Assembly: GCF_000026545.1 (NCBI RefSeq) | Contig: NC_011601.1 | Reading direction: 5' to 3' (one strand) | Length of the DNA stretch: 64,000 bases | DNA from: Escherichia coli O127:H6 str. E2348/69 | GTDB lineage: Bacteria > Pseudomonadota > Gammaproteobacteria > Enterobacterales > Enterobacteriaceae | Shown here: piece after piece, positions 23,684 through 40,272 of the stretch | How the letters are laid out: each line of letters starts with the position of its first letter | Numbering within the stretch: position 1 is the first letter of the stretch | Translations under genes and position numbers: made by a program | The notes under the pieces: model-generated | What the model saw: only the letters and a program-made list of their open reading frames with translations | What the model was told of the DNA's origin: nothing | The model's database searches: none

Positions 23684-24241
23684 ATGTCTTATTCAGAAAT
23701 CGCCGCGTGTCTGGCATACGCGGTTTCCGTCTGGCTGGCTGCCAGAAACAATGTGCATACATGGTGGATCGGCATAATTGGCAGCATATTGTACGGCTGG
23801 GTTTTTTGGTCCGTGCAACTCTATGCCGACGTTACGCTCCAGTTATTCTTCATCGCGACCAGCATCACTGGCTGGATCCACTGGCTGAAAGGTCAGGGTG
23901 GCGACATCTTGCCGGTGCGCCGAACGCAAGCCTGTCACTTTTTCCTTTTGTTGCTCTGTGCTGTCGTCGTGGCAGGCGGTTACGGCTTTTTACTCCACAC
24001 CTTTACCAATGCCTGGGCACCCTGGCTGGATTCGTTGATTTTGACCTTTAGCGTTCTGGCACAATTCATGTTGATGGGAAGACGTATCGAAAACTGGTTC
24101 GTCTGGTTAGCGGTGAATACCTTGGCAGTGCCACTGTATATGACGCGCGGTTTAAACCTGACCGCTGGCTTATATTTCCTGTTCTGGATTAACGCCTGGC
24201 ATGGTTTGTATCAATGGCGCAAAGAGTTGCAAACATCATGA
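23684..24241 (+). CDS. PnuC-family nicotinamide riboside transporter-like membrane protein (185 aa)
   Basis: Small polytopic membrane protein with PnuC-like hydrophobic pattern; good RBS (GGGAGGG); stop overlaps the next gene start (ATGA); not pnuC proper. Confidence 0.7.
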   Translation: MSYSEIAACLAYAVSVWLAARNNVHTWWIGIIGSILYGWVFWSVQLYADVTLQLFFIATSITGWIHWLKGQGGDILPVRRTQACHFFLLLLCAVVVAGGYGFLLHTFTNAWAPWLDSLILTFSVLAQFMLMGRRIENWFVWLAVNTLAVPLYMTRGLNLTAGLYFLFWINAWHGLYQWRKELQTS

Positions 24242-25242
24242 AGCCTTTTGCAACGGGCCTGGTGGTTGGTAAATTCGCGCCTTTGCATTGTGGTCATGAA
24301 AAGTTGATCAATACCGCACTGGCGCAATGTGAAGAACTGTTCATCATCAGTTATTCCGTGCCGGAAATGCCTGACTGTGAACCTGAAAAGCGCCTGACGT
24401 GGCTGCAAGTGCGCTTCCCGCAAGCGACGATTTTGGTACTGACGCCAGAGCTTGTTGCGCGTTATAACTTACCTGCCATACCGCATAACGATGCCGATGC
24501 CGACATCCACCGTCATTATGTGGCGACGCTGTGCCTGCAGATATTACGCTGTCGTCCACATGCTGTATTTACTGCAGAAGACTATGGCGATGGCTTTGCT
24601 AACGTGCTGGCGCGGCGTTTTGCCCAACCCGTTGAACACGTTCGAATGGCGCGCCCAGTTGGCGATGAAGCGCCTTCGGGAACGCTTATTCGTTCCGATG
24701 TTCACCGCTATCGCTACATGTTGGCGAATGATGTTTATTACAGTTTCGTTCGCCGTATCTGTCTGCTTGGTGGCGAATCTACCGGTAAAAGCACGCTTTC
24801 AAAAGCGCTGGCGGATGGGCTTGATACGGTGTATGTCGCTGAATTTGGCCGCGACTATTGGGAAGAAAAAAACGGAATCTTAACCGCGGATGATTTGTTG
24901 CATATCGCCTGCGAACAGGTACGCCGGGAACAACAAGCAGAAGCTAATCACTATCTTATATGTGACACGTCGCCACTCACGACCTTGTTCTATGCCCTTG
25001 ATCAATATGGTCATGCTCCGCAAGAACTTCATCAACTGGCGGAGCGGGAATACTCTCTGGTGGTGCTTTGCGGCGCAGAATTTCCCTTCGTGCAGGATGG
25101 CACCCGGCAAGGAGAGGTATTTCGCGCACGGCAACAGGTGTGGTATGAACAGGAATTGTCGCGCAGGAACATTCCTTATCTTTCGGTTTCGGGGCCACTG
25201 CAAGAGCGAGTGGAGCAAATTCTTCGCCAACTTCCCGACTGA
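24214..25242 (+). CDS. NadR-like bifunctional NMN adenylyltransferase / ribosylnicotinamide kinase lacking the N-terminal HTH domain (start at 24214 or 24238)
   Basis: Nucleotidyltransferase motif GKFAPLHCGH (compare NadR GKFYPLHTGH) and P-loop GGESTGKST (NadR kinase domain Walker A); 333-342 aa versus about 410 for full NadR. Confidence 0.8.
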   Translation: MAQRVANIMKPFATGLVVGKFAPLHCGHEKLINTALAQCEELFIISYSVPEMPDCEPEKRLTWLQVRFPQATILVLTPELVARYNLPAIPHNDADADIHRHYVATLCLQILRCRPHAVFTAEDYGDGFANVLARRFAQPVEHVRMARPVGDEAPSGTLIRSDVHRYRYMLANDVYYSFVRRICLLGGESTGKSTLSKALADGLDTVYVAEFGRDYWEEKNGILTADDLLHIACEQVRREQQAEANHYLICDTSPLTTLFYALDQYGHAPQELHQLAEREYSLVVLCGAEFPFVQDGTRQGEVFRARQQVWYEQELSRRNIPYLSVSGPLQERVEQILRQLPD

Positions 25243-25323: not shown

Positions 25324-26517
25324 GTGTTTCAAAAAGTTGACGCCTACGCTGGCGACCCGATTCTTACGCTTATGGAGCGTTTTAAAGAAGATCCCCGCAG
25401 CGACAAAGTGAATTTAAGTATCGGTCTGTACTACAACGAAGACGGAATTATTCCACAACTGAAAGCCGTGGCGGATGCGGAAGCGCGCCTGAATGCGCAG
25501 CCTCATGGTGCTTCGCTTTATTTACCGATGGAAGGGCTTAACAGCTATCGCCATGCCATTGCGCCGCTGCTGTTTGGTGCGGACCATCCGGTACTGCAAC
25601 AACAGCGCGTAGCAACCATTCAAACCCTTGGCGGCTCAGGGGCATTGAAAGTGGGCGCAGATTTCCTGAAACGCTACTTCCCGGAATCAGGCGTCTGGGT
25701 CAGCGATCCTACCTGGGAAAACCACGTAGCAATATTCGCCGGGGCTGGATTCGAAGTGAGCACTTACCCCTGGTATGACGAAGCGACTAACGGCGTGCGC
25801 TTTAATGACCTGTTGGCGACGCTGAAAACATTACCTGCCCGCAGTATTGTGTTGCTGCATCCATGTTGCCACAACCCAACGGGTGCCGATCTCACTAATG
25901 ACCAGTGGGATTCCGTGATTGAAATTCTCAAAGCCCGTGAGCTTATCCCATTTCTTGATATTGCCTATCAAGGATTTGGTGCCGGTATGGAAGAGGATGC
26001 CTACGCCATTCGCGCCATTGCCAGCGCTGGATTACCCGCTCTGGTGAGCAATTCGTTCTCGAAAATTTTCTCCCTTTACGGCGAGCGCGTCGGCGGACTT
26101 TCTGTTCTGTGTGAAGATGCCGAAGCCGCAGGCCGCGTACTGGGGCAATTGAAAGCAACCGTTCGCCGCAACTACTCCAGCCCGCCGAATTTTGGTGCGC
26201 AGGTGGTGGCTGCGGTGCTGAATGACGAGGCATTGAAAGCCAGCTGGCTGGCGGAAGTAGAAGAGATGCGAACTCGCATTCTGGCAATGCGTCAGGAACT
26301 GGTGAAGGTATTGAGCACAGAGATGCCAGAGCGCAATTTCGATTATCTGCTTAATCAGCGCGGCATGTTCAGTTATACCGGTTTAAGAACCGCCCAGGTT
26401 GACCGACTACGTGAAGAATTTGGTGTCTATCTCATCGCCAGCGGTCGCATGTGTGTCGCCGGGCTTAACGCGCAAAATGTGCATCGCGTGGCAAAGGCGT
26501 TTGCTGCGGTGATGTGA
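25324..26517 (+). CDS. tyrB: aromatic-amino-acid aminotransferase TyrB (397 aa, GTG start)
   Basis: Translation from (V)[13 protein letters not shown] matches TyrB. Confidence 0.9.
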
Positions 26518-26527
26518 TTTTAATCAA

Positions 26528-26547
26528 CAGGCGGATCTCTCCGCCTG
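26528..26547 (+). terminator. hairpin after tyrB (CAGGCGGATCTCTCCGCCTG)
   Basis: Perfect 8-bp stem read directly; weak T tract. Confidence 0.45.
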
Positions 26548-26647
26548 TTCCTGACTCCAGCCATCCCCTACTATTCTGTCCCTTTTTTCGCCCACTTTTA
26601 CATCATCTATTTTCTATAAGTTTTTGAAAATTAGTGTTTTTAACTGT

Positions 26648-26663
26648 TGGTACGGATTGTGCA
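26648..26663 (+). promoter_or_regulatory. sigma-54 (-24/-12) promoter-like element upstream of the island E1 gene
   Basis: TGGTACGGATTGTGCA: TGG..AC at -24 and TGCA at -12 with canonical spacing, about 35 bp upstream of the E1 ATG. Confidence 0.5.
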
Positions 26664-26698
26664 GTAATGCGGCTGTCTATGACCATCAGGAGAAAAAC

Positions 26699-29443: not shown

Positions 29444-29475
29444 AAGGCGCACAAAAATAATAAGGAGAACATTTT

Positions 29476-30630
29476 ATGATCGAAATTACTGTCCCTGTAT
29501 TACCGGAATCTGTCACGGAAGGCACGCTGACAACCTGGTGTAAACAAGAAGGCGAGCACGTAAAACGCGATGATGTGATTGCCGAGCTGGAAACCGATAA
29601 AGTCATTCTGGAAATACCGGCCCCGCACGATGGCGTGTTAAGCAATATTATCGTCAGCGAAGGTAGCACGGTCACGTCCGCGCAACTGTTGGCGCATCTT
29701 AAGCCGCAAGCTGTCATAGAAGAAACCGTCACACCAGTCACCGAAACCCTGACGATGCCTTCCGCACGGCTGGAGGCACAGCGTAGTGGTGTCGAACTTG
29801 CTGACGTTGCGGGGAGCGGGAGAAATGGACGTATCCTGAAAGAGGATGTGCAGCGCGTTACTCCTGCACCAGCCATTCAGCCTGAACGGGTGGCGGAGAT
29901 CGCGCCAGCTAAACCCTTGACACCGGGTGCTCGTCAGGAACGTCGTGAGCCGATGTCGCGCTTACGTCAGCGAATTGCTGAGCGTCTGCTGGCTTCCCAA
30001 CAAAATAACGCCATTCTTACCACATTCAACGAAGTAAACATGCAGAGCGTGATGGATTTACGCGCCCGCTGGAAAGATCGTTTTGCCGAGAAGCACGGCG
30101 TGAAGCTGGGCTTTATGTCCTTCTTTGTTAAGGCCGTTACCCGGGCGCTGGAGCGCTTCCCTGTAGTGAATGCCAGCGTTGATGGTAACGAGATTATCTG
30201 GCGTGATTATTGCGATATCGGCATTGCAGTGAGCAGCAACCGCGGCCTGGTAGTGCCTGTGTTACGCAATGCGCAATCACTCTCTTTGGTGGAAATTGAA
30301 CGGCAAATTGCCGAATACGCCACACAGGCTCGCAATGGCAAATTGCCGCTGGAGGCGTTACAGGGCGGCACGTTCTCTATCACCAACGGCGGTACTTTTG
30401 GTTCGATGATGTCAACGCCAATCATTAACCCGCCGCAGTCGGCCATTCTTGGGATGCATGCCATCACGCCGCGCCCGGTCGCAGAAAACGGCCAGGTTGT
30501 TATTCGTCCCATGATGTACCTTGCTCTCAGCTATGACCATCGCATTATTGATGGGCAGGAAGCCGTTCAGACGCTGGTGGCAATACGCGAGCTACTGGAG
30601 TCACCGGAACAACTGTTGCTGGATCTTTAA
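29476..30630 (+). CDS. dihydrolipoamide succinyltransferase E2 paralogue (SucB-like, 384 aa)
   Basis: Lipoyl domain with ELETDKV lipoyl-lysine motif; catalytic domain with [12 protein letters not shown]. Confidence 0.9.
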
Positions 30631-30641
30631 GGAGAGCGCCA

Positions 30642-32060
30642 ATGAGTACAATTTTCGATGTGGCAGTTATGGGTGGTGGGCCAGGTGGTTACGTAGCGGC
30701 ACTGCGGGCTGCGCAGAATGGGCTTTCCGTAGTATGTATTGATGATGGTGTAAATGCTCAGGGCGAACCTTCGCCGGGCGGTACGTGCCTCAATGTCGGC
30801 TGTATTCCGTCAAAATCGTTGCTGCAATCTTCCGAACTGTACGCGCAAGTGCAGCATGAGGCGAGCATTCATGGCGTTAATGTTGACGGCGTATCTTTCA
30901 ATGCAGCTGCGATGATTCAACGTAAAGACGCCATAGTAAGCCGCCTGACAATGGGCATCGGTTTGCTGTTTAAGAAAAATAAAGTGAAGCACCTGTGCGG
31001 CCTCGCAACGTTAGAACATGCTCAGGATGAGATTTGGCAATTACGTGTAAACGATCAACAAATCCGCGCCCGTAATGTGGTGATTGCAACAGGTTCTCAG
31101 CCGCGTCAACTGCCTGGCGTTACCATTGATAATCAGCAAATTCTCGATAATCGCGGCGCCCTGGCGTTAACCGCTGTGCCGCCGCGTCTCGGTGTGATCG
31201 GCGCTGGCGTGATTGGCCTTGAACTGGGGTCTGTGTGGAATCGGGTCGGTTCAGACGTCACGTTGCTGGAGATGGCGCCAACGTTCTTGCCTGCACTGGA
31301 AGCTCGCCTGTCGAACGAAGTCCGTAAAGCAATGATTGCCAGTGGGATGAAAATGCAACTGGCAGTAGAGATTGAGGCTATTGAACAACGGGATGACGGT
31401 GTGCATGTGCGCTGGCGGCAGGGTGAGAAGCGAGAAGAAAGCCGCTTCGATAAATTAATTCTTGCCATTGGACGTGTACCGCGACTTTCTGGTGTCGATC
31501 TCGTGCAACTCGGTCTTGAAGCCGATAACCGTGGCGGTATTGCCGTCGATAACTTATGCCGTACCGGGAAAGCCGGGCTGTGGGCAATTGGTGATGTCGT
31601 GCGAGGGCCGATGCTGGCGCATAAAGCGATGGCTGAAGGTGTGGTGGTTGCTGATCAAATTGCCGGACTGGCGGTAGAGCCGATTAATTTTGCGCTGATC
31701 CCTTCGGTGATTTACACCCAACCGGAAGTTGCGTGGGTAGGGGAAAACGAGGCCTCACTGAAAGCCGCTGGCAGAGTCTTTAACAAAGGAAATTCTCTGT
31801 TTGCCGGTAACGGTCGCGCCTTAGCATTAGGCCAGGAAGGTGGGCGTTGCACGTTATACAGCGATAAACACACTGACCGCGTACTTGGCGGAGCGATTGT
31901 TGGCCCGCAGGCATCGGAGCTGATCAATGAAATTGCGCTGGCGATGACTTTTAGCGCCTCTGGCGAGGATATTGTCTGTGCGATCCATGCGCATCCGACA
32001 TTAAGCGAAGTCATCCACGAAGCAGCAATGGCCTTGAATAATAAAGCATTACACGGATAA
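30642..32060 (+). CDS. dihydrolipoamide dehydrogenase E3 paralogue (Lpd-like, 472 aa)
   Basis: FAD-binding GGGPGG, redox-active disulfide motif GTCLNVGCIPSK, C-terminal HAHPTLSE. Confidence 0.9.
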   Translation: MSTIFDVAVMGGGPGGYVAALRAAQNGLSVVCIDDGVNAQGEPSPGGTCLNVGCIPSKSLLQSSELYAQVQHEASIHGVNVDGVSFNAAAMIQRKDAIVSRLTMGIGLLFKKNKVKHLCGLATLEHAQDEIWQLRVNDQQIRARNVVIATGSQPRQLPGVTIDNQQILDNRGALALTAVPPRLGVIGAGVIGLELGSVWNRVGSDVTLLEMAPTFLPALEARLSNEVRKAMIASGMKMQLAVEIEAIEQRDDGVHVRWRQGEKREESRFDKLILAIGRVPRLSGVDLVQLGLEADNRGGIAVDNLCRTGKAGLWAIGDVVRGPMLAHKAMAEGVVVADQIAGLAVEPINFALIPSVIYTQPEVAWVGENEASLKAAGRVFNKGNSLFAGNGRALALGQEGGRCTLYSDKHTDRVLGGAIVGPQASELINEIALAMTFSASGEDIVCAIHAHPTLSEVIHEAAMALNNKALHG

Positions 32061-32081
32061 CACATACCACTGAGGGAATAT

Positions 32082-33251
32082 ATGAATTTACATGAGTATC
32101 AGGCCAAATCGTTACTGGCTGGCATGGGGATGCCGTGTCCAAAAGAGATAGCCATCCAACAGATTTCGCAACTGGCAGATGCCTGGCAACATATTGCTTG
32201 CCCGAGTAAAGGCGCGGTACTTAAAGCGCAGGTACATGCTGGTGGGCGCGGTAAAGCTGGCGGCGTAAAAGTGCTTAAGCAGCTGCCGGAAGCACAGGCT
32301 TTTGTACAGCAAATGTTGGGATCGCAACTGGTGACTTATCAGACCGGGCCAGAAGGACAGTATGTCAGCAGTATTTTACTGTGCGAAAACATTTATCCGG
32401 TACGCCAGGAACTCTATTTTGGCATGGTGGTGGATCGTGAAAGCCAGCGGGTCACGTTTATTGTCAGCCCGGAAGGTGGTGTGGAAATTGAAAAAGTCGC
32501 CCATGAGACACCGGAGAAAATCAGCAGTGTCAGCATTGATCCACTGACAGGCGTGCAGCCTTGCCATATCCGAGAAATGTTTGCTGTTCTGCAACTGGAA
32601 CACGGACTATTTGCTGCCTTTAGTCGCCTGGTTAATCAGGCGTGGAAAGCCTTTAACGAACTGGATTTTGCCCTGCTGGAAATTAACCCTCTGGTGTTGC
32701 GGGAAACGGGCGAATTTATGTGTGCAGACGCGAAAGTATCGCTGGATGATAACGCGCTGTATCGTCACCCGGAACTCCAGGTGCTACGTGATGAAACCCA
32801 GGAAGATCCACGCGAAAGCCAGGCAGCGAAGCTTGATCTTAATTATGTCTCGCTGGACGGAAATATCGGCTGCATGGTCAATGGTGCAGGGCTGGCTATG
32901 GCAACCATGGACATCATCAAGCTATACGGTGAACAACCCGCAAACTTCCTGGATGTTGGCGGTGGCGCAACCCAGGAGCGCGTCAGTGAAGCCTTTCGGC
33001 TGATTGTTTCCGACGGCAAAGTGAAAGCCATTCTGGTTAATATTTTTGGTGGGATTGTCCGTTGCGACATGATCGCCAGAGCCATTATTCATGCTCTGAA
33101 TGAGGCCCGTATCACCCTGCCTGTCGTGGTGCGTCTCTCCGGTAATAACGCTGCCGAAGGGCAGCGGTTACTGGCAGAAAGTGGCCTGACGGTGGAAGCC
33201 GTCAATTCTCTGGATGATGCCGCTAAACGCATCATTGCGTTACTGAATTAA
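32082..33251 (+). CDS. succinyl-CoA synthetase beta subunit paralogue (SucC-like, 389 aa)
   Basis: ATP-grasp N-terminus MNLHEYQAKSLL, collinear with SucC. Confidence 0.9.
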   Translation: MNLHEYQAKSLLAGMGMPCPKEIAIQQISQLADAWQHIACPSKGAVLKAQVHAGGRGKAGGVKVLKQLPEAQAFVQQMLGSQLVTYQTGPEGQYVSSILLCENIYPVRQELYFGMVVDRESQRVTFIVSPEGGVEIEKVAHETPEKISSVSIDPLTGVQPCHIREMFAVLQLEHGLFAAFSRLVNQAWKAFNELDFALLEINPLVLRETGEFMCADAKVSLDDNALYRHPELQVLRDETQEDPRESQAAKLDLNYVSLDGNIGCMVNGAGLAMATMDIIKLYGEQPANFLDVGGGATQERVSEAFRLIVSDGKVKAILVNIFGGIVRCDMIARAIIHALNEARITLPVVVRLSGNNAAEGQRLLAESGLTVEAVNSLDDAAKRIIALLN

Positions 33252-33263
33252 CAGGAGGTTAAG

Positions 33264-34136
33264 ATGAGCGTTTTGATCAACAAACACACGCGGGTACTGG
33301 TGCAGGGCATTACCGGCAAAAACGGCACATTTCATACAGAGCAGGCTATTGCGTATGGCACGCAGATTGTGGGTGGAGTGACGCCAGGTAAGGGCGGGCA
33401 ACGGCATCTGGATCGCCCGGTTTTTGATTCAATGAAAGAAGCGATGCGACAAACTGAGGCTGATGCCAGCGTGATTTATGTGCCTGCACCGTTTGTGCTG
33501 GATTCTGTTGTTGAGGCTATTGAAGCTGGCGTCAAATTGGTTGTGGTGATCACTGAAGGTGTACCGACACTGGATATGGTGAAAGTTCGTCGGCTGCTTG
33601 ACTGCCACCCGGATGTGCGGCTGATTGGGCCAAACTGCCCAGGAGTTATCACGCCGGGTGAGTGCAAAATCGGGATTATGCCTGGTGAAATCCACCGCCC
33701 AGGGCGTATTGGGATTGTTTCCCGCTCCGGTACATTAACCTACGAAGCTGTAGCGCAAACCACGGCGCTGGGACTTGGGCAATCCACCTGTATTGGTATT
33801 GGCGGCGATCCGGTTCCGGGGACTAACTTTATTGATGCGCTGCGTTTATTCGAAAATGATCCGCAAACAGACGCGGTAATTATGATCGGTGAAATTGGTG
33901 GTAATGCGGAAGAACGGGCCGCGGAATTTATTCGTCATGAAATGAATAAACCGGTCGTAGGTTATATTGCCGGTGTTACTGCACCAAAAGGAAAACGCAT
34001 GGGACACGCCGGAGCCATTATTTCTGGCGGTAGCGGCAGTGCGGAGGATAAATTCCGGGCGTTCGATAAAGCAGGCATGGCATGGACACGAAATCCAGCA
34101 TTACTTGGCGAAACGTTATGGAATGTTATTAAGTAA
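33264..34136 (+). CDS. succinyl-CoA synthetase alpha subunit paralogue (SucD-like, 290 aa)
   Basis: CoA-binding N-terminus, catalytic His region (GHAGAII) conserved. Confidence 0.9.
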
Positions 34137-34154
34137 TCCATAAATGAATATCAA

Positions 34155-34178
34155 GGGAGCATATCGCTCCCTTTTTTT
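34155..34178 (+). terminator. rho-independent terminator after the SucD-like gene
   Basis: GGGAGC-ATATC-GCTCCC stem-loop followed by T7. Confidence 0.7.
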
Positions 34179-34291
34179 ATCTGTGTGGTAAGGGAATCAT
34201 CTTTTAATAACTGTGCGGAAAACCGCGCATAAAATAAAAAGGATAAATAGCTAACTCATTAAATAACAAAGCGTTATTAAAAAATTAAAGA

Positions 34292-34307
34292 TGGCATAGC
34301 TCCTGCA
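34292..34307 (+). promoter_or_regulatory. second sigma-54 (-24/-12) promoter-like element, upstream of the transporter gene
   Basis: TGGCATAGCTCCTGCA: TGGCA at -24 and TGCA at -12 with canonical spacing, about 40 bp upstream of ATG 34348. Confidence 0.5.
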
Positions 34308-34347
34308 ATAGCCAGGCAGGTTTTTTATTTTTCACAATGAGGTGAAT

Positions 34348-35847
34348 ATGTCATCAATATCCCATGGCGCACCACAAAAGCGTCGAATTATCCCTAATCC
34401 CGGCCTGTGGTTGGCGATCATTGCCGGAATTATTATTACCCTTCTGCCACTGGGCGATACCTTGCCCGTCGCCGGACAAAATATGATCGCCATTCTGGTG
34501 TTTGCCATTATTGTCTGGATCAGCGAAGCGATGGATTACACCGCCAGTGCAATTGTTATTTCCGCACTGATTATCTTTATGGTTGGTTTTGCCCCGGATA
34601 TGAATCACCCGGACACGATCCTTGGCACCGCGAAAGCGCTGAAAATGACTCTGTCGGGTTTTTCTAATTCTGCTCTGGCGCTGGTGGCAGCAGCAATGTT
34701 TATCGCGGCGGCAATGACCATTACCGGGCTGGATAAACGCATTGCGCTGTTTACTATGTCGAAAATAGGTGCCAGCAGCCGCAGCATTATTATCGGTGCC
34801 ATTGTGGTGACCATCGTCCTGAGCCTGGTCGTACCCAGTGCCACTGCCCGTACGGCTTGCGTGGTGCCGATTATGATGGGGGTCATTGCGGCATTTAAGG
34901 TGGATAAACATTCACGTTTAGCGGCGTCAATGATGATTGTTATCGCCCAGGCGACCAGTATCTGGAAAGTTGGTATTCAAACTTCGGCGGCGCAAAACCT
35001 GCTTTCTATCGGTTTTATCAATAAAACTTTCGGCGCCGGGCATTCTGTCAGCTGGCTTGACTGGCTGTTAGCGGGCGCGCCCTGGAGCCTCACCATGTCG
35101 GTGATCCTCTATTTCCTCGCACGTAAATTGTTGCCGCCAGAAACGGAAGCTGTTGAAGGGGGGAGCGAGGCCATTAAAAAAGCACTCGCAGAGTTAGGGC
35201 CAACCACCGGTAAAGAAAAACGCTTGATCGGTATTTCGCTGTTGTTACTGCTCTTTTGGTCTACTGGCGGAAAATTGCACAGTATTGATACCACCTCTGT
35301 CACCCTTGCCGGACTGGCGATTATGTTGCTGCCAGGCATCGGTGTAATGAGCTGGAAAGAGGTCGAAAAACGTGTGCAGTGGGGCACGTTGCTTATGTTT
35401 GGTATTGGTATCAGCCTGGGGTCCACGTTGCTTGATACACAGGCAGCTTCATGGATGGCGAACTATGTGGTGAAAGGTTTTGGTCTCGATGGCTTGCCAT
35501 CATTAGCCATCTTCGCGATTCTCGCCGCTTTCTTGATAATCATTCACCTGGGGTTTGCCAGTGCCACTGCGCTAACTGCCGCATTGCTGCCCATCCTGAT
35601 TAGCCTGTTAAGCAGTCTGCCGCCAGAACTCGGCGTTAACCCGGTCGGCATGACCATTCTGCTCGCCTTCAGTGTCAGTTTTGGCTTCATCCTGCCGATT
35701 AACGCGCCACAAAATATGGTGTGTATGGGTACGGATACCTTCACGCCACGCCAGTTTACCCGTGTGGGACTGTACCTGACGGTGATCGGCTACCTGTTGT
35801 TGCTACTGTTTGCCGCCACCTGGTGGAAAATTTTAGGTCTAATGTGA
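34348..35847 (+). CDS. DASS/CitT-family dicarboxylate (anion) transporter (about 499 aa)
   Basis: Polytopic membrane protein with two-repeat architecture typical of the divalent anion:Na+ symporter / CitT family; start at ATG 34348 after RBS GAGGTG. Confidence 0.8.
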   Translation: MSSISHGAPQKRRIIPNPGLWLAIIAGIIITLLPLGDTLPVAGQNMIAILVFAIIVWISEAMDYTASAIVISALIIFMVGFAPDMNHPDTILGTAKALKMTLSGFSNSALALVAAAMFIAAAMTITGLDKRIALFTMSKIGASSRSIIIGAIVVTIVLSLVVPSATARTACVVPIMMGVIAAFKVDKHSRLAASMMIVIAQATSIWKVGIQTSAAQNLLSIGFINKTFGAGHSVSWLDWLLAGAPWSLTMSVILYFLARKLLPPETEAVEGGSEAIKKALAELGPTTGKEKRLIGISLLLLLFWSTGGKLHSIDTTSVTLAGLAIMLLPGIGVMSWKEVEKRVQWGTLLMFGIGISLGSTLLDTQAASWMANYVVKGFGLDGLPSLAIFAILAAFLIIIHLGFASATALTAALLPILISLLSSLPPELGVNPVGMTILLAFSVSFGFILPINAPQNMVCMGTDTFTPRQFTRVGLYLTVIGYLLLLLFAATWWKILGLM

Positions 35848-35858
35848 GGAAACCAACG

Positions 35859-36932
35859 ATGTCATTACAAATTGCTGTTGAAAAAGTGCGTTGGTTAGCT
35901 GCCGGGCTGCTGGAACTTAATGGCTGTGATGCCGATATCGCTCAGGATGTGGCGGAACATATGATTGAAGCGGAACGTTATGGTTTTGCCAGCCACGGCG
36001 TCACGCTGCTACCGAAATATCTGGAAAATATCGCTCGTGGCGATGTAACCGCGAATGCCCGCCCGGAATGCTTAACAAGTGAAGGTAATTTACAACGTTT
36101 TCATGCCCACAATGGCTTTGGTCAACACGCCGGAAAAGTGGCGGTAAATGCTGCCATCGAACAAACAAAACACCGCGGTTTTTGCCTGTTAACGTTGTGC
36201 CATGCGCATCATTTAGGGCGTATGGGGCATTACGGGCAAATGGTTGCTGATCAAGGCCTGGCGATGCTGGCCATGAGTAACGTCACCGGGCGTCCGGCAC
36301 TGGTCGCCCCGTGGGGCGGTGCGGAACCGCGTATGACCACTAACCCTTTCTGCTTTGCCTGGCCGTTCAGTGATGGGCGTCCGCCGATTCTGGTTGATTT
36401 TGCCACCAGTAGCATGGCGCTAAATAAAGCACGGGTAATGTCGTCCACCGGGAAGCAGGCCGCGCCGGGACAATTGATCGATGCACAGGGGAATCCAAGC
36501 AATGATCCTGGGGTGTTATTCAGCAATCCTCCAGGGGCGTTACTGCCATTTGGTGAGCATAAAGGATTTGGCCTGGCACTGATGATTGAAATGATGGCGG
36601 GGATCTTATCTGGTGGTGACACGATCGCCGAAGATCATCAGACGGATGGATCTGCGCATAATCATCTTTTTGCGTTGATTATCGATCCTGATCAATTCAC
36701 CGATCTGGCAGGGGAGAAAGGGCAGTTCTTTGCGGATTATCTGTTAGCTACGCAGCCTCAACCTGGCGGCAATCCGGTGATTTACCCCGGTATGCCAGAA
36801 GCTGCCAACCGGGAACGCAATGCGAAGATGATTACGATCCCGGTATCATTCTGGTCCTGGGTAGTTGAACATTACGCCCGCAAAGGTATCGATTTGGGGT
36901 TACATCCTCAGGAATCAGCATTAGCTGGATGA
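35859..36932 (+). CDS. Ldh_2-family (malate / L-lactate / sulfolactate type) NAD(P)-dependent 2-hydroxyacid dehydrogenase (357 aa)
   Basis: Family-typical segments (GxxSHG region GFASHG, EHKGFGLAL); start placed at ATG 35859 after RBS GAGGAAA, rejecting the upstream extension that overlaps the transporter. Confidence 0.8.
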   Translation: MSLQIAVEKVRWLAAGLLELNGCDADIAQDVAEHMIEAERYGFASHGVTLLPKYLENIARGDVTANARPECLTSEGNLQRFHAHNGFGQHAGKVAVNAAIEQTKHRGFCLLTLCHAHHLGRMGHYGQMVADQGLAMLAMSNVTGRPALVAPWGGAEPRMTTNPFCFAWPFSDGRPPILVDFATSSMALNKARVMSSTGKQAAPGQLIDAQGNPSNDPGVLFSNPPGALLPFGEHKGFGLALMIEMMAGILSGGDTIAEDHQTDGSAHNHLFALIIDPDQFTDLAGEKGQFFADYLLATQPQPGGNPVIYPGMPEAANRERNAKMITIPVSFWSWVVEHYARKGIDLGLHPQESALAG

Positions 36933-38279
36933 TTCTGGTCGATAAACTTGCGGTTGAATCTGATGTTTGTTGAGTTTGTCATATAAAGTCTTGCGCGGCA
37001 GCTGTAATAGCCGCGCTGTCAAACTGACCTGGCCTTCCGTTTGTCGCAGCATATCTTCGATTAACTTTTTCTCGAAAGCATCAATGCAGGCGGTAAGGCC
37101 ACTCTCTTCTTGCTGAGTCATTGGTACTGGCTGGTGGTGGGTCAGTAAACCGAGAACAAAACGCTCTGCATTGTGTTTAAGTTCACGTACATTGCCAGGC
37201 CAACTTTGTGACTGCAACCAGGCCAGTAACATGGGAGAAATATCAGGCAGAGGACGATTATATTTTTGTGCCGCCTGACTGGCGAACCAGTAAAACAGTT
37301 CAGGGATATCTTCTCGTCGTTGGCGTAGAGGTGGAATATTCAGGCTAACCACATTCAGACGATAATAGAGATCGAGACGAAACAGATGTTCTTCGCTGCG
37401 ACGCAGTAAATCTTCCTTGGTCGCTGCAATAACACGGCAATTCACCGGAATTAATTGATTGGCACCTAATCGTTCAATGGTTCTTTCCTGCAATACACGT
37501 AGCAGTTTTACCTGCATTCCTGATGGCATTCCCTCTATTTCATCGAGAAATAACGTACCACCATTTGCATGTTCAATTTTTCCAATACGCTTTTTAACCG
37601 CACCGGTAAATGCGCCCGCCTCATGACCAAATATTTCGCTTTCAAACAACGTTTCTGGTAAGCCTGCACAGTTTAAGGCAACAAACTGCCCCTGACGGCG
37701 GGTACTCCAGTGATGCAGCATTCTGGCGACGACTTCTTTACCACAACCTGTTTCACCATAAATAAGGACATCGGCACCGGTATCTGCGACATTAAGGATC
37801 ATTTTACGCAGTTGTTGCATCTGCGGACTACGACCAATCAGCACCGGGCCATTTTCCTGTTGCAGATTCGCCAGTAATTGCTGATTTTCTAAAACCAATC
37901 GCCGTTTTTCTACCGCTCTGGCAATAATACTCAATAATTTATCTGAGCTACTTGGTTTCTCAATGAAATCGAATGCACCATTACGCATGGCATCCACCGC
38001 CATTTCCACGTCACCGTGTCCGGTAATTAAAATAACCGGAATTTTGCTATCCATTTCGTTGATGTAACTGAGGAGCTCTAGTCCTGATATTCCAGGTAAC
38101 CTGACATCGGTCAGTATAATAATGTTGGCCTGACTTTGAATAAGGGGAATACTGTGTTCTGCATCGCAACAGGAAATAACACGATAACCAGCCAGCGTGA
38201 GCGTTTGTTCACAGGCAAAACGTACATCGTCACTATCCTCAATATAAACTATAGTAATTTCACTGGATTTATTATTCAT
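36921..38279 (-). CDS. kguR: sigma-54-dependent two-component response regulator (NtrC/DctD family, 452 aa)
   Basis: Receiver domain with phospho-acceptor Asp (IILTDVRLPG), AAA+ domain with Walker A GETGCGKE and the sigma-54 contact motif GAFTGA, C-terminal Fis-type HTH; gene name from memory of the UPEC KguS/KguR system. Confidence 0.85.
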   Translation of the reverse strand: MNNKSSEITIVYIEDSDDVRFACEQTLTLAGYRVISCCDAEHSIPLIQSQANIIILTDVRLPGISGLELLSYINEMDSKIPVILITGHGDVEMAVDAMRNGAFDFIEKPSSSDKLLSIIARAVEKRRLVLENQQLLANLQQENGPVLIGRSPQMQQLRKMILNVADTGADVLIYGETGCGKEVVARMLHHWSTRRQGQFVALNCAGLPETLFESEIFGHEAGAFTGAVKKRIGKIEHANGGTLFLDEIEGMPSGMQVKLLRVLQERTIERLGANQLIPVNCRVIAATKEDLLRRSEEHLFRLDLYYRLNVVSLNIPPLRQRREDIPELFYWFASQAAQKYNRPLPDISPMLLAWLQSQSWPGNVRELKHNAERFVLGLLTHHQPVPMTQQEESGLTACIDAFEKKLIEDMLRQTEGQVSLTARLLQLPRKTLYDKLNKHQIQPQVYRPESSS

Positions 38280-40092
38280 GTTCTTCTCCCCATTCAGGCC
38301 AGGTTAATGTCATTACTGCGCCGCCTTCAGGATGATTACTGGCGTGGAGTGCGCCGTTCGAATTTCGGACAATTTCGCTGACTATTGCCAGTCCCAACCC
38401 CATTCCTCTACGTTTAGTGGTAAAAAATGGTTCAAATATGCGATCGACAACTTCAGGTGCAAAACCGCCACCGCTGTCTTTAATGGTAATAATAACTTTG
38501 TTATTTGCCTGGCGAATGGCGATATCCAGTCGTTTGTAAGAGCTACCTTCCATAGAATCTAAGGCGTTGCTAATTAAATTACTGAATATCTGTTCAAGAC
38601 CGAGCTCATCGCAATTGACAAATAACGGCATGGATGGGGCTTTTATTCGTCGCTCAATATTATTTTTCTCCATGCTGTGATTAAGTAACGCCACGGCGCT
38701 ATACATCACTTTGATGACATCGGCAGAACCTTTAGGTACGCGATGGCGCGAGGCAAATGCTTTAAGTTCGGAAATGAGCTGCGTCATCCGCTCAATCACT
38801 GAAATAATGTGTTTCAGATTCTGTTCAACCTGCGGATACATCTCTTTTTTTAGCATAGTACGCGCGTTATCAGTAAGTGCGTGAATGGCGGCTAACGGTT
38901 GATTTTGTTCATGGGCAATTTCGGTTGCCATCTGTCCAAGCGCCGCCAGTTTGCTGGACTCTGCCAGTTCACTACGCGTAATTTGTAATACTTGTTCAGC
39001 CTGACTGCGCTCTTTTATCTCCTGTATTAATTTTTGATTGATCAATTCCAGGGCAGATGTACGCTCTTTAACCTGTTTCTCTAATGTTTCATTCGCCAGT
39101 GTTAATAATTGTTGTGCATGAGATCGCATTCTCCAGTATTTAATAAATAACAAAAACAGCAGGTAAATAATTAGCGTAATGACTAACGAAATAGCCCATG
39201 ACCAGTACAGGTTATCTAAGGGGACCATAATTGTCATTTTCCAGTTAAATTCTGGAATGGCTATTTGTTGCGTATAATATTGCGGGAATAAACAGAGTTG
39301 TTCTTTTTTATCTTTCAGGAAAGTAAAATTGCTCACGGTATAACAGGGATAATAATCCGCCGGTAAAAGATTGTCGAGACTATATTGGCGGGTAGATTGT
39401 AGTTTTTGTTTTGCCTGAACAGGTAACGGTTGCAGTGTTCGCATTCGCCATGGCGATTTTGAACTTAAAAATATAATCCCATGTTCATCATTCACGATAA
39501 TATTTTCAGGACCTTCGGCCCATGCTTTTTCAATTTCATTAAGACTTATTTTTACTACTACAACACCGACAATTTTTCCTTTATCTTTTATACTTGTAGA
39601 GAGGAAGAATCCCGGTGTATTCGTAGTGCTACCAATACCGTAAAAGCGTCCATTTAAGCCAGACATGGCGTGTTTATAATAGGGGCGATAGCTATAATTT
39701 TGCCCTACATAGCTGCCGGGGTCCTGCCAGTTGCTAGAAGCGATGGCCTTACCTTGGGTATCCAGAATAAATATTGCTGCGGTTTTGAGTTGAGTATTGA
39801 AATGTGCAATTCGTTGATTGAGTTCGCTGGACATCATATCGTCAGGCGTAATTACCGCCTGACGGATGATATGGTCTGTTGAGAGCATATAGGGTAAAAC
39901 ATAAAATTGCTCGATGGTGGAATATAATGTGGACTTATACATTTCAAGCCGCATTTTATCGGTACCGGACAAGGTATTAAAACGCAAGTGCAAAAAAGCG
40001 ATTGAAACCGCGAGCATGATAAGAAAAAGTGAAATGCTTGTAATGTGAAATCGCCATTTGTTCTTAAATATATAATTCCACGATATTTTCAT
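38272..40092 (-). CDS. kguS: periplasmic-sensing histidine kinase (DctB-like, 606 aa)
   Basis: Two transmembrane segments flanking a large periplasmic domain, H-box ATEIAHEQNQPL, ATP-binding G-boxes; 8-bp overlap with the regulator gene; gene name from memory. Confidence 0.85.
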   Translation of the reverse strand: MKISWNYIFKNKWRFHITSISLFLIMLAVSIAFLHLRFNTLSGTDKMRLEMYKSTLYSTIEQFYVLPYMLSTDHIIRQAVITPDDMMSSELNQRIAHFNTQLKTAAIFILDTQGKAIASSNWQDPGSYVGQNYSYRPYYKHAMSGLNGRFYGIGSTTNTPGFFLSTSIKDKGKIVGVVVVKISLNEIEKAWAEGPENIIVNDEHGIIFLSSKSPWRMRTLQPLPVQAKQKLQSTRQYSLDNLLPADYYPCYTVSNFTFLKDKKEQLCLFPQYYTQQIAIPEFNWKMTIMVPLDNLYWSWAISLVITLIIYLLFLLFIKYWRMRSHAQQLLTLANETLEKQVKERTSALELINQKLIQEIKERSQAEQVLQITRSELAESSKLAALGQMATEIAHEQNQPLAAIHALTDNARTMLKKEMYPQVEQNLKHIISVIERMTQLISELKAFASRHRVPKGSADVIKVMYSAVALLNHSMEKNNIERRIKAPSMPLFVNCDELGLEQIFSNLISNALDSMEGSSYKRLDIAIRQANNKVIITIKDSGGGFAPEVVDRIFEPFFTTKRRGMGLGLAIVSEIVRNSNGALHASNHPEGGAVMTLTWPEWGEEHE

Positions 40093-40272
40093 TCATCATC
40101 CATTGAATGCATTTATATTTATCATCAGTATATTCCCTGAACAATGTTTGCGAGAACCAAAAGAGTGCCATTGTGTGAATGTGTAAGCAGAATAACCGTG
40201 GCAATGTGTGGTTTATCGCACAGGTATTCCAAATGTGATCATGCTCTTTTTATGTGACAAATCCGCAGATAA

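What the first reader, a model, noticed from the sequence alone, without database searches (positions are those of the whole stretch)
34348..36932. Transporter plus Ldh_2-family dehydrogenase unit of unassigned substrate
A DASS/CitT-type anion transporter is directly followed (12-bp spacer) by an Ldh_2-family enzyme, a family that includes malate, L-lactate, ureidoglycolate and sulfolactate dehydrogenases. Placed beside a 2-oxoglutarate dehydrogenase complex, this pair could import a C5 dicarboxylate and interconvert a 2-hydroxy and 2-oxo acid (for example 2-hydroxyglutarate to 2-oxoglutarate). The actual substrate cannot be read from sequence.
Basis: inference. Interest (0 to 1): 0.5.

Follow-up and report, generated by a model that had tools for sequence, protein, structure and literature searches.

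The report
Known E. coli alpha-ketoglutarate utilisation operon
These two genes are the already published c5038-c5039 operon of the KguS/KguR alpha-ketoglutarate island of extraintestinal pathogenic E. coli. Genetics has assigned the transporter's substrate, but nobody has yet tested what the partner dehydrogenase does.

Summary
A DASS transporter gene (34348-35847) is followed after 11 bp by an Ldh_2 gene (35859-36932).

It is not new. The window is E. coli E2348/69, and the pair is c5038-c5039 of the KguS/KguR alpha-ketoglutarate (KG) island between tyrB and aphA. The proteins are 498/499 and 355/357 identical to CFT073. Published work shows:
- one operon, induced by KG and not by 2-hydroxyglutarate;
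- activation by KguR and sigma-54;
- c5038 is needed for anaerobic growth on KG and for mouse urinary-tract fitness.

The published KguR site and the sigma-54 promoter are present in the window. The adjacent 2-oxoglutarate dehydrogenase is the island's own second copy.

c5039 has never been tested on its own.
- The DASS-Ldh_2 pair is a conserved cassette: 8/8 gamma-proteobacterial kgu modules and 27 Burkholderiales loci, including the locus of the Cupriavidus necator fermentative L-lactate dehydrogenase. It was absent next to 51 more distant Ldh_2 genes.
- The transporter has SAT in place of the sodium-site SNT motifs, and the PSxxAR signature of plastid 2-oxoglutarate/malate antiporters.

My inference is that C5038 exchanges KG for a product, and that C5039 reduces a 2-oxo acid, probably KG itself, to reoxidise NADH.

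Verdict: already known, low interest.

The parts
26450..26474 (+). KguR binding site upstream of the island's E1 gene (TGTGTG-N13-CGCGCA), inside the 3' end of tyrB
   Evidence: Exact match to the published consensus. The same sequence is listed for CFT073 in PMC8716947 and PMC3694859.
26699..29443 (+). Island 2-oxoglutarate dehydrogenase E1 (c5032-c5034 equivalent)
   Evidence: RefSeq annotation of the identical E2348/69 locus; CFT073 synteny.
29476..30630 (+). E2 dihydrolipoyllysine succinyltransferase (island copy)
30642..32060 (+). E3 dihydrolipoyl dehydrogenase (island copy)
32082..33251 (+). Succinyl-CoA synthetase beta subunit (c5036 equivalent)
33264..34136 (+). Succinyl-CoA synthetase alpha subunit (c5037 equivalent)
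34153..34180 (+). Intrinsic terminator-like hairpin plus T run after sucD, separating the two operons
   Evidence: It fits the published finding that c5032-37 and c5038-39 are separate operons.
34212..34231 (+). KguR inverted repeat of the c5038 promoter. It reads TGTGCGGAAAACCGCGCATA here and ...CGCACA in CFT073. It still fits the consensus in the 18-nt register 34212-34229.
   Evidence: EMSA evidence for KguR binding in CFT073 is in PMC3694859 and PMC8716947.
34292..34307 (+). Sigma-54 promoter (-24 TGGCAT / -12 CTGCA), identical to CFT073
   Evidence: The only perfect match to TGGCAY-N5-YTGCW in the 64-kb window. It is identical in CFT073. The published transcription start 30 nt before the ATG (about 34318) and the rpoN dependence fit this site.
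34348..35847 (+). c5038 orthologue: 499-aa DASS-family anion transporter and the genetically assigned anaerobic alpha-ketoglutarate importer. The SNT motifs are replaced by SAT (S164-A-T, S405-A-T), and it carries a PSATAR motif.
   Evidence: (498/499 identical to CFT073).
35859..36932 (+). c5039 orthologue: 357-aa Ldh_2-family NAD(P)H oxidoreductase, substrate untested
   Evidence: (355/357 identical to CFT073).
36921..38279 (-). kguR (c5040): sigma-54-dependent response regulator. It is convergent with c5039 and overlaps its 3' end by 12 bp.
   Evidence: same protein accession WP_001060859.1 in E2348/69 and CFT073.
38272..40092 (-). kguS (c5041): sensor histidine kinase (orthologues carry a dCache_1 sensor domain)
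40205..40222 (+). KguR autoregulatory site in the kguS promoter (TGTGTGGTTTATCGCACA)
   Evidence: The identical sequence is listed for CFT073 in PMC8716947.

Best explanation
Shown. The two genes are the c5038-c5039 operon of the horizontally acquired KguS/KguR alpha-ketoglutarate (KG) utilisation island, inserted between tyrB and aphA. The copy here is in the EPEC strain E2348/69. KguS senses KG under low oxygen. Phosphorylated KguR binds the inverted repeat at about 34212 and activates the sigma-54 promoter at 34292-34307. The operon is transcribed together with the neighbouring operon for a second 2-oxoglutarate dehydrogenase and succinyl-CoA synthetase, which turn KG into succinate with one ATP, one CO2 and one NADH. 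C5038 supplies KG to this pathway anaerobically.

Inferred, step 1. C5038 works as a sodium-independent exchanger, taking KG in and releasing succinate and/or 2-hydroxyglutarate. This is the way CitT, TtdT and the plastid 2-oxoglutarate/malate translocators work, rather than as the 'sodium-coupled symporter' of its database name.

Inferred, step 2. C5039 runs in the reductive direction as a 2-oxo-acid reductase that reoxidises the NADH made by the island dehydrogenase. The most likely substrate is KG itself, giving L-2-hydroxyglutarate. The island could then dismutate KG (2 KG -> succinate + CO2 + 2-hydroxyglutarate + ATP) without an external electron acceptor.
For: Identity:
- 100% DNA identity to E2348/69.
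- Position between tyrB and aphA, as published for CFT073.
- 498/499 and 355/357 residues identical to the CFT073 proteins, with an identical sigma-54 promoter.
- The KguR consensus hits exactly the three published sites in 64 kb.

Published function:
- One operon by RT-PCR; induced by KG but not by 2-hydroxyglutarate, glutamate, glutarate, fumarate or succinate; KguR EMSA.
- rpoN dependence and RpoN EMSA; the c5038 mutant has an anaerobic KG growth defect that complementation improves, and it loses fitness in mice.
- c5039 is down about 8 log2 units, together with the island genes, in a kguR mutant.

Exchanger inference:
- Both Asn residues of the VcINDY SNT motifs are Ala (SAT/SAT).
- The PSATAR motif matches PSTTAR/PSVSAR of the chloroplast DiT2.1/DiT1 antiporters, which become the best PDB hit for the core region.
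- 49% similarity to the citrate/succinate antiporter CitT is reported.

Reductase inference:
- DASS-Ldh_2 adjacency is strict in the clade: 8/8 kgu modules and 27 Burkholderiales loci, against 0/51 for more distant Ldh_2 genes.
- The clade includes the C. necator H16_A0666 NAD(P)H L-LDH locus.
- An FNR/ANR box lies upstream of the pair in 11/11 Achromobacter/Bordetella loci, against a 2% background.
- The best family match is the YbiC/HcxB model.
- Under inducing conditions KG is the one abundant 2-oxo acid, and the island itself generates NADH (inference).
Against: - No enzyme assay, no single c5039 mutant and no transport assay exist in the papers I could read.
- The published anaerobic growth tests of 2017 contained TMAO as electron acceptor. 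An internal electron sink was therefore not required in them and its existence is untested.
- The 2021 metabolomics paper does not mention 2-hydroxyglutarate in its main text.
- The nearest characterised relative (C. necator LDH, 45% identity) is named for pyruvate, not KG.
- The kgu-linked clade has a remodelled set of polar residues: K53, Q127 and H267 gained, and Arg262 of the beta clade lost. I cannot map these onto a structure. They show that something changed, not what the substrate is.
- SAT in place of SNT argues against VcINDY-type sodium sites, but it does not prove exchange.
- The activities of YbiC/HcxB and of the C. necator enzyme are quoted from my own knowledge; the primary papers were not readable here.
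Confidence: 0.6

Rival explanations
1. C5039 is a general fermentative 2-oxo-acid reductase that acts mainly on pyruvate (L-lactate dehydrogenase) or oxaloacetate (malate dehydrogenase), as its family name suggests. It would still serve as an NADH sink for the island, but it would not use alpha-ketoglutarate.
For: The clade includes the C. necator enzyme annotated and studied as L-lactate dehydrogenase. All catalytic and cofactor invariants are shared. The best NCBIfam hit is 'malate/lactate/ureidoglycolate dehydrogenase'.
Against: With KG as the only carbon source and no oxygen, pyruvate and oxaloacetate are not direct products of the island pathway (inference). E. coli already has LdhA and Mdh. 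Growth on malate, fumarate and succinate was unaffected by the island deletions. The kgu-linked clade differs from the LDH clade at positions fixed in each: Q127 versus E in 78/78 other sequences, plus K53, H267 and loss of R262. That pattern suggests a changed substrate.
Confidence: 0.25
2. One reading: the pair imports 2-hydroxyglutarate (or another 2-hydroxy dicarboxylate), and C5039 oxidises it to 2-oxoglutarate to feed the neighbouring dehydrogenase.
For: The gene order and families allow it. Ldh_2 enzymes such as AllD do work oxidatively with NAD+.
Against: 2-hydroxyglutarate does not induce either island operon, whereas KG does from 200 uM. The c5038 mutant phenotype is on KG itself. 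NAD-linked oxidation of a 2-hydroxy acid is thermodynamically unfavourable, and under anaerobiosis it would add to the NADH burden (established biochemistry; inference). E. coli's known L-2-hydroxyglutarate oxidation uses a flavoenzyme (own knowledge).
Confidence: 0.07
3. C5038 is an ion-coupled symporter (sodium or proton) that simply accumulates KG, as its database name says, and no product exchange is involved.
For: It passes the DASS family model. VcINDY-type symporters are its best full-length PDB hits. The authors describe it as an 'importer'.
Against: Both sodium-coordinating Asn residues of the SNT motifs are Ala. The PSxxAR motif is shared with the DiT1/DiT2.1 antiporters. CitT, the relative named in the papers, is an antiporter. 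E. coli's anaerobic carboxylate carriers typically exchange substrate for succinate (own knowledge).
Confidence: 0.3
4. C5039 is a passenger. The DASS-Ldh_2 cassette was captured whole from a Burkholderiales-like donor for the sake of the transporter, and the enzyme has no role in KG use.
For: The pair exists without any KG genes in 27 Burkholderiales loci. The transporter is more conserved between the two clades (60-64% identity) than the enzyme (43-51%). No phenotype has been tied to c5039 alone.
Against: The enzyme gene is intact and adjacent in 8/8 kgu modules across Escherichia, Citrobacter, Klebsiella, Pectobacterium and Vibrio, at 61-97% identity, even where the module is rearranged or inserted elsewhere. 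It has clade-specific fixed residues. It is strongly KguR-dependent.
Confidence: 0.08

Closest known systems
c5038-c5039 operon of the KguS/KguR genomic island of UPEC CFT073 (Cai et al. 2013, 2017, 2021; PMC3694859, PMC5318444, PMC8716947)
   Same: It is the same locus: between tyrB and aphA, with 498/499 and 355/357 identical residues, an identical sigma-54 promoter, the KguR site, and the flanking c5032-37 and kguRS genes.
   Different: The host strain is the prototype EPEC E2348/69 rather than a UPEC strain. There is one C-to-T change in the right arm of the KguR repeat.
Cupriavidus necator H16 ldh (H16_A0666, founding member of the Ldh_2 family) with its upstream DASS gene
   Same: The same two-gene cassette in the same order and with tight spacing. 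The transporter is 63% identical over 465 residues and the enzyme 45%. The C. necator enzyme is a fermentative NAD(P)H-linked 2-oxo-acid reductase (for the annotation; its physiology is from my own knowledge).
   Different: There is no adjacent 2-oxoglutarate dehydrogenase, succinyl-CoA synthetase or sigma-54 two-component system. The enzyme differs at clade-fixed positions 53, 127, 262 and 267.
E. coli YbiC / HcxB (PDB 2G8Y; NCBIfam NF007504)
   Same: Best-scoring solved structure (E 4.9e-52) and best NCBIfam model. It shares the absence of the AllD-type Arg48 and the HHxGR motif. It is reported to reduce 2-oxoglutarate and aryl-pyruvates with NADPH (own knowledge, Sevin et al. 2017; not readable here).
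   Different: The score of 276.8 bits is below the 336-bit equivalog cut-off, and identity is roughly 37-39%. YbiC-like genes have no DASS neighbour (0/51).
CitT / TtdT bacterial antiporters and plastid DiT1 / DiT2.1 2-oxoglutarate/malate and glutamate/malate translocators (DASS family)
   Same: DASS fold, no Asn in either SNT position, and the PSxxAR motif. The authors report 49% similarity to CitT.
   Different: It is only distantly related (E 1e-16 to 1e-22 against the DiT proteins). It matches no equivalog model for CitT or TtdT, and exchange activity has not been shown.
Pseudomonas aeruginosa MifS/MifR with the PA5530 alpha-ketoglutarate transporter
   Same: A two-component system with a sigma-54 enhancer-binding regulator that switches on a KG transporter in response to KG (as discussed in PMC5318444).
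   Different: As I recall, PA5530 is an MFS carrier and not a DASS protein. That system has no linked Ldh_2 enzyme or second dehydrogenase complex. I did not test this here.

Membership tests
KguS/KguR island operon c5038-c5039 | Chromosomal position between tyrB and aphA, flanked by c5032-37 (E1-E2-E3-sucCD) and the convergent kguR-kguS | tested here: met
   published description.
KguS/KguR island operon c5038-c5039 | Near-identity of both proteins to CFT073 C5038 and C5039 | tested here: met
   498/499 and 355/357 identical residues.
KguS/KguR island operon c5038-c5039 | KguR inverted repeat plus sigma-54 -24/-12 promoter upstream of the transporter gene | tested here: met
   34212-34229 fits TGTG(T/C)G-N5-15-C(G/A)C(G/A)CA. 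34292-34307 is the only perfect sigma-54 match in the window.
KguS/KguR island operon c5038-c5039 | Induction by alpha-ketoglutarate under anaerobiosis, and a requirement for anaerobic growth on it | not testable with these tools
   Shown experimentally for CFT073 only. Not tested in E2348/69.
Pfam Ldh_2 (PF02615) / L-sulfolactate dehydrogenase-like oxidoreductases | Full-length match to the family model | tested here: met
   E 4.5e-93, 312 bits, model positions 2-329 of 333.
Pfam Ldh_2 (PF02615) / L-sulfolactate dehydrogenase-like oxidoreductases | The two invariant histidines (AllD His44, His116) and the cofactor-site residues Thr156, Pro158, Asp174, Lys224 and Gly306 | tested here: met
   H46, H118, T161, P163, D180, K235 and G311 are present and invariant across 86 clade members.
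YbiC/HcxB equivalog (NCBIfam NF007504) | Score at or above the curated cut-off of 336 bits | tested here: not met
   276.8 bits.
Ureidoglycolate dehydrogenase AllD | Arg48, which is essential for substrate binding, and the TIGR03175 cut-off of 496 bits | tested here: not met
   The equivalent position is Leu50. The score is 129.2 bits.
DASS transporter family (TIGR00785) | Score above the curated cut-off | tested here: met
   240.3 bits against a cut-off of 198.6.
Sodium-coupled DASS symporters (VcINDY / SLC13 type) | Two Ser-Asn-Thr motifs whose Asn residues coordinate sodium | tested here: not met
   Both are Ser-Ala-Thr (S164-A165-T166 and S405-A406-T407) in the alignment to VcINDY. The authors also noted this.
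DASS exchangers (CitT / DiT type) | PSxxAR motif in the first hairpin and no Asn in the second motif | tested here: met
   PSATAR against PSTTAR (DiT2.1) and PSVSAR (DiT1). ASATA against ASQTG and ASGAA.
DASS exchangers (CitT / DiT type) | Obligatory substrate/product counter-exchange | not testable with these tools
   This needs proteoliposome counterflow assays.

The most novel reading that the evidence does not exclude
C5038 and C5039 together form a redox valve. C5038 exchanges external alpha-ketoglutarate for succinate and/or L-2-hydroxyglutarate. C5039 reduces a second molecule of alpha-ketoglutarate with the NADH made by the island dehydrogenase. The island would then carry out a self-contained alpha-ketoglutarate dismutation that yields ATP by substrate-level phosphorylation with no external electron acceptor, and would release 2-hydroxyglutarate, a metabolite active on host cells, in the kidney. 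The same transporter-reductase cassette would be a general low-oxygen electron-sink module in Burkholderiales, and would explain why the C. necator 'lactate dehydrogenase' gene sits behind a dicarboxylate carrier.
Probability: 0.3. Interest if true: 0.55.

Novelty: already known. Interest (0 to 1): 0.2.

Why it matters
As a scan finding it adds nothing new. The operon, its regulator, its promoter, its inducer and its role in urinary-tract fitness were published between 2013 and 2021.

Two points keep some value:
- The second gene, c5039, is still a blank. The comparative evidence gathered here gives a concrete and cheap hypothesis to test: a reductive NADH sink that probably makes 2-hydroxyglutarate, coupled to an exchanger.
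- The island is intact in the prototype EPEC strain, and it is present in about a fifth of complete E. coli genomes. The published label 'UPEC-associated, absent from diarrhoeagenic E. coli' therefore needs qualifying.

Tried and rejected
- Primary paper on YbiC/HcxB activity (Sevin et al. 2017): I tried to read it by DOI, but it is not held. Two searches for hcxB/ybiC text gave only passing mentions. That activity is therefore quoted from my own knowledge.
- Later characterisation of c5039: only the three Cai et al. papers mention the gene, and none assigns a function. The 2021 metabolomics text has no mention of hydroxyglutarate, malate or lactate.
- AllD, YiaK and ComC membership: considered and rejected. 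All scores are far below the cut-offs, and the AllD Arg48 equivalent is Leu.
- Housekeeping sucAB-sucCD: I first suspected the neighbouring dehydrogenase was this set. I rejected that because it lies between tyrB and aphA and has its own lpd gene.
- FNR/ANR boxes as a general feature of the Burkholderiales cassette: only Achromobacter and Bordetella have a clear box (11/11). Paraburkholderia and Pandoraea have none at up to 2 mismatches, and Cupriavidus has only a degenerate TTGATCTnGnnCAw box. The generalisation is not supported.
- Structure prediction: I did not run it. The tools return no coordinates, so the clade-specific residues could not have been placed relative to the active site, and the fold family is already unambiguous.
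- A first script failed because the CFT073 locus file was not yet visible to the sandbox. I made the comparison with the alignment tools instead.
Full report
**1. What is in the sequence**

The window has two same-strand ORFs at the stated place.
- 34348-35847 encodes a 499-aa membrane protein.
- 35859-36932 encodes a 357-aa protein.
- The gap between them is 11 nt, not 12. A GAGGA ribosome-binding site overlaps the first gene's TGA.
- The first protein passes the NCBIfam DASS model (240.3 bits, cut-off 198.6).
- The second is a full-length Pfam Ldh_2 protein (E 4.5e-93).

**2. Where the window comes from**

A 2.8-kb query around the pair is 100% identical to E. coli E2348/69 (O127:H6, the prototype EPEC strain). 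It is found in 1045 of 5426 complete E. coli genomes, once per genome.

In E2348/69 the RefSeq gene order is: dnaB, alr, pnuC, AAA-ATPase, tyrB; then 2-oxoglutarate dehydrogenase E1, E2, lpdA, sucC, sucD; then the DASS transporter and the Ldh family oxidoreductase; then, convergent, a sigma-54-dependent regulator and a sensor kinase; then aphA.

This layout is not the housekeeping sdh-suc region. It is an insertion between tyrB and aphA.

**3. It is a published system**

Cai et al. (PLoS Pathog 2013, PMC3694859) described the island in UPEC CFT073.
- Genes c5032-c5039 plus the two-component system c5041/c5040 (KguS/KguR) form a genomic island between tyrB and aphA.
- c5032-37 and c5038-39 are two operons by RT-PCR.
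- Both are induced anaerobically by alpha-ketoglutarate (KG) from 200 uM. They are not induced by 2-hydroxyglutarate, glutamate, glutarate, fumarate or succinate.
- KguR binds both promoters.
- Deleting c5038-39 impairs anaerobic growth on KG, and deleting the whole cluster abolishes it.
- The island contributes to fitness in the mouse urinary tract.

The 2017 follow-up (PMC5318444) added the following.
- c5038 alone is needed for anaerobic growth on KG, complementation improved the mutant's growth, and it matters in vivo.
- The promoter is sigma-54-dependent, with a transcription start 30 nt before the ATG.
- The protein carries SAT instead of the SNT motif.
- Its relatives are mainly in Burkholderiales and pseudomonads.

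The 2021 paper (PMC8716947) lists the KguR sites and shows island genes, including c5039, down by about 8 log2 units in a kguR mutant.

**4. Proof that the window pair is that operon**

I fetched the CFT073 region. The transporter is identical at 498 of 499 residues and the Ldh_2 protein at 355 of 357.

The intergenic region is 98% identical, and the sigma-54 element TGGCATAGCTCCTGCA is unchanged. The KguR repeat reads TGTGCGGAAAACCGCGCATA in the window and ...CGCACA in CFT073.

The published KguR consensus hits only three places in the 64-kb window. They are exactly the three published sites: before E1 (26450), before the transporter (34212) and before kguS (40205).

The only perfect sigma-54 match in the window is 34292-34307. 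That places the -12 element about 12 nt before the published start site. A terminator-like hairpin at 34153-34180 separates the two operons.

**5. What remains open**

The authors call C5039 'a protein with unknown function'. Only their three papers mention the gene in the searchable library. None reports an enzyme assay, a single-gene mutant or a transport assay. C5038 is described as 'likely an anaerobic KG importer'.

The statement that the unit as a whole is of unassigned substrate does not.

**6. The enzyme**
- The best solved relative is E. coli YbiC (2G8Y, E 4.9e-52).
- The best NCBIfam model is the YbiC family, but at 276.8 bits against a cut-off of 336. It is therefore a paralogue, not an equivalog.
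- The AllD, YiaK and sulfolactate dehydrogenase models score far below their cut-offs.
- The residues the AllD structural paper gives as family invariants are all present, as H46, H118, T161, P163, D180, K235 and G311. In AllD numbering these are His44, His116, Thr156, Pro158, Asp174, Lys224 and Gly306.
- The Arg that is essential for substrate binding in AllD, and that is present in DpkA and YiaK, is Leu50 here.

**7. Comparative genomics: the new part**

Homologues at 61-97% identity occur in E. albertii, Citrobacter, Klebsiella indica, Salmonella, Brenneria, Pectobacterium and Vibrio. A large group at 43-51% identity lies in Burkholderiales and includes the C. necator protein annotated as L-lactate dehydrogenase.

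Context look-ups showed three things.
- The whole kgu module is present in Pectobacterium, inserted at a different chromosomal site (between glnG/yshB and hemN).
- It is present in Vibrio in a rearranged order.
- In C. necator, Paraburkholderia and Bordetella only the transporter-enzyme pair is present.

The C. necator upstream gene is 63% identical to the window transporter over 465 residues.

I then scanned one genome per species and searched all 91 held loci with the nine island proteins.

| Identity of the Ldh_2 gene to the window protein | Loci | Neighbourhood |
|---|---|---|
| 61% or more | 8 | A DASS gene directly upstream and kguR in all 8, with as many of the dehydrogenase, succinyl-CoA synthetase and kguS genes as each contig reaches |
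| 43-51% | 27 | A DASS gene (60-64% identical) directly upstream, with none of the other island genes |
| 43-51% | 3 | No DASS gene within reach |
| 43-51% | 1 | Contig cut off upstream, so not informative |
| 42% or less (YbiC-like and others) | the remaining non-DASS loci | No DASS gene within reach |

In the alignment grouping, 51 loci in total have no adjacent DASS gene.

The pair is therefore an old, strictly linked cassette. In gamma-proteobacteria it was joined to a KG-oxidising operon and a KG-sensing two-component system.

The C. necator member is, very probably, H16_A0666. It is 349 aa and listed as an NAD(P)H L-LDH. From my own knowledge, this is the fermentative enzyme induced by oxygen limitation that founded the Ldh_2 family (Jendrossek et al. 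1993; cited).

In 11 of 11 Achromobacter and Bordetella loci, a near-perfect FNR/ANR box (TTGAT-N4-ATCAA) sits at a fixed distance upstream of the transporter gene. Random segments show 2%. The other genera lack a clear box.

**8. Clade-specific residues**

I aligned 86 proteins grouped by context.

| Position | kgu-linked clade (8 sequences) | Other sequences |
|---|---|---|
| 53 | Lys in 8/8 | Mostly Asn in the Burkholderiales pair clade |
| 127 | Gln in 8/8 | Glu in all 78 other sequences |
| 267 | His in 8/8 | Thr, Ile or Val |
| 262 | No Arg | Arg in 26/27 of the Burkholderiales pair clade |

Position 53 lies three residues after the position of the substrate-binding Arg of other family members.

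These changes show that the pocket chemistry was altered when the cassette joined the KG module. I cannot place them in three dimensions with the tools available, so they do not identify the substrate.

**9. The transporter**

Aligned to VcINDY, both sodium-coordinating Ser-Asn-Thr motifs are Ser-Ala-Thr. For the core region the best solved hit becomes chloroplast DiT2.1. The first-hairpin motif PSATAR matches PSTTAR (DiT2.1) and PSVSAR (DiT1). These proteins are 2-oxoglutarate/malate-type antiporters and also lack the Asn residues.

The authors report 49% similarity to the citrate/succinate antiporter CitT. The RefSeq name 'sodium-coupled anion symporter' is therefore generic and probably misleading. 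Exchange is the better guess, but it is unproven.

**10. The most likely mechanism**

Shown:
- KguS/KguR plus sigma-54 switch on the pair and the neighbouring operon in response to KG at low oxygen.
- C5038 is needed to use external KG.
- By homology and by the growth defect of the island deletions, the neighbouring enzymes are taken to convert KG to succinate, with ATP probably made at the succinyl-CoA synthetase step.

Inferred:
- The dehydrogenase makes one NADH per KG, and that NADH has no obvious outlet anaerobically.
- C5039 belongs to a clade of fermentative 2-oxo-acid reductases and is always carried with the transporter. It most plausibly reoxidises that NADH by reducing a 2-oxo acid.
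- KG is the one such acid that is abundant under inducing conditions.
- The products, succinate and 2-hydroxyglutarate, would leave in exchange for incoming KG.

The 2017 growth tests contained TMAO. TMAO would mask such a role, which may be why it has gone unnoticed.

I put about 0.97 on the identity of the operon and its KG-uptake role. I put about 0.5-0.6 on exchange rather than symport, about 0.6 on C5039 acting reductively as an NADH sink, and about 0.3-0.35 on KG being its main substrate.

**11. Rivals**
- C5039 may reduce pyruvate or oxaloacetate instead (0.25).
2-hydroxyglutarate does not induce the operon, and the reaction is uphill and adds NADH.
- C5038 may be an ion-coupled symporter (0.3, on a separate axis).
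- C5039 may be a passenger (0.08). Its retention in all eight modules and its fixed clade-specific residues argue against this.

**12. Verdict**

The operon is already known, so interest as a discovery is low. What is left is a testable hypothesis for one uncharacterised enzyme, plus a note that the island is not restricted to uropathogens.

Noticed in passing
window 26450-40222 (whole island): The complete, intact KguS/KguR island is present in E2348/69, the prototype enteropathogenic E. coli. [quoted passage not shown] It is in 1045 of 5426 complete genomes. It may track lineage (my guess is phylogroup B2, untested) rather than pathotype.
   Followed up: partly
L007 6446-9050; L009, L011, L017-L045: The DASS-Ldh_2 pair is a stand-alone two-gene cassette in 27 Burkholderiales loci (Cupriavidus, Paraburkholderia, Pandoraea, Achromobacter, Bordetella). 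These include the locus of the C. necator fermentative L-lactate dehydrogenase. The transporter is more conserved relative to E. coli (60-64%) than the enzyme (43-51%).
   Followed up: yes
L011, L020-L023, L025, L027, L028, L032, L033, L035: about 200-260 bp before the DASS match: A near-perfect FNR/ANR-type box (TTGAT-N4-ATCAA, at most 1 mismatch) lies at a conserved distance upstream of the DASS gene in 11/11 Achromobacter/Bordetella loci, against 2% of random segments. Cupriavidus has only a degenerate TTGATCTnGnnCAw box, and Paraburkholderia and Pandoraea have none.
   Followed up: partly
window 34230: There is a single C-to-T difference from CFT073 in the right arm of the KguR inverted repeat (CGCACA to CGCATA). 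The site still fits the published consensus in a shorter register (34212-34229). The effect on induction in E2348/69 is unknown.
   Followed up: partly
window 36921-36932: The 3' ends of c5039 (+) and kguR (-) overlap by 12 bp, and no terminator-like hairpin was detected between the convergent genes. Convergent transcription could couple their expression.
   Followed up: no
window 35859-36932, residues 53, 127, 262, 267: The kgu-linked Ldh_2 proteins have fixed Lys53, Gln127 (Glu in 78/78 other sequences) and His267, and lack the Arg262 of the Burkholderiales clade. These are candidate specificity determinants. They could not be mapped onto a structure here.
   Followed up: partly
L015 (JABXHW010000047.1, labelled 'Flavobacteriia bacterium' MAG): This contig carries a kgu module whose identity values match those of Vibrio sp. 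Y2-5 (L003) gene for gene. It is probably a mis-binned Vibrio contig rather than a Bacteroidota occurrence.
   Followed up: no
window about 23684-25242: A pnuC gene and an AAA-family ATPase gene lie between alr and tyrB in both E2348/69 and CFT073. As far as I recall, alr and tyrB are adjacent in K-12, so this may be a second small insertion next to the island.
   Followed up: no
window 38001-40000: G+C falls to 41% over kguS, against about 51% for the surroundings. This fits horizontal acquisition of the island.
   Followed up: no
L005/L006 (Pectobacterium) and L003/L004 (Vibrio): The kgu module is inserted at a different chromosomal site in Pectobacterium (between glnG/yshB and hemN-yihI-polA). 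In Vibrio it is rearranged, with the order DASS-Ldh_2, then RR-HK on the opposite strand, then E1-E2-E3-sucC. This shows the module moves as a unit while the DASS-Ldh_2 pair stays together.
   Followed up: yes
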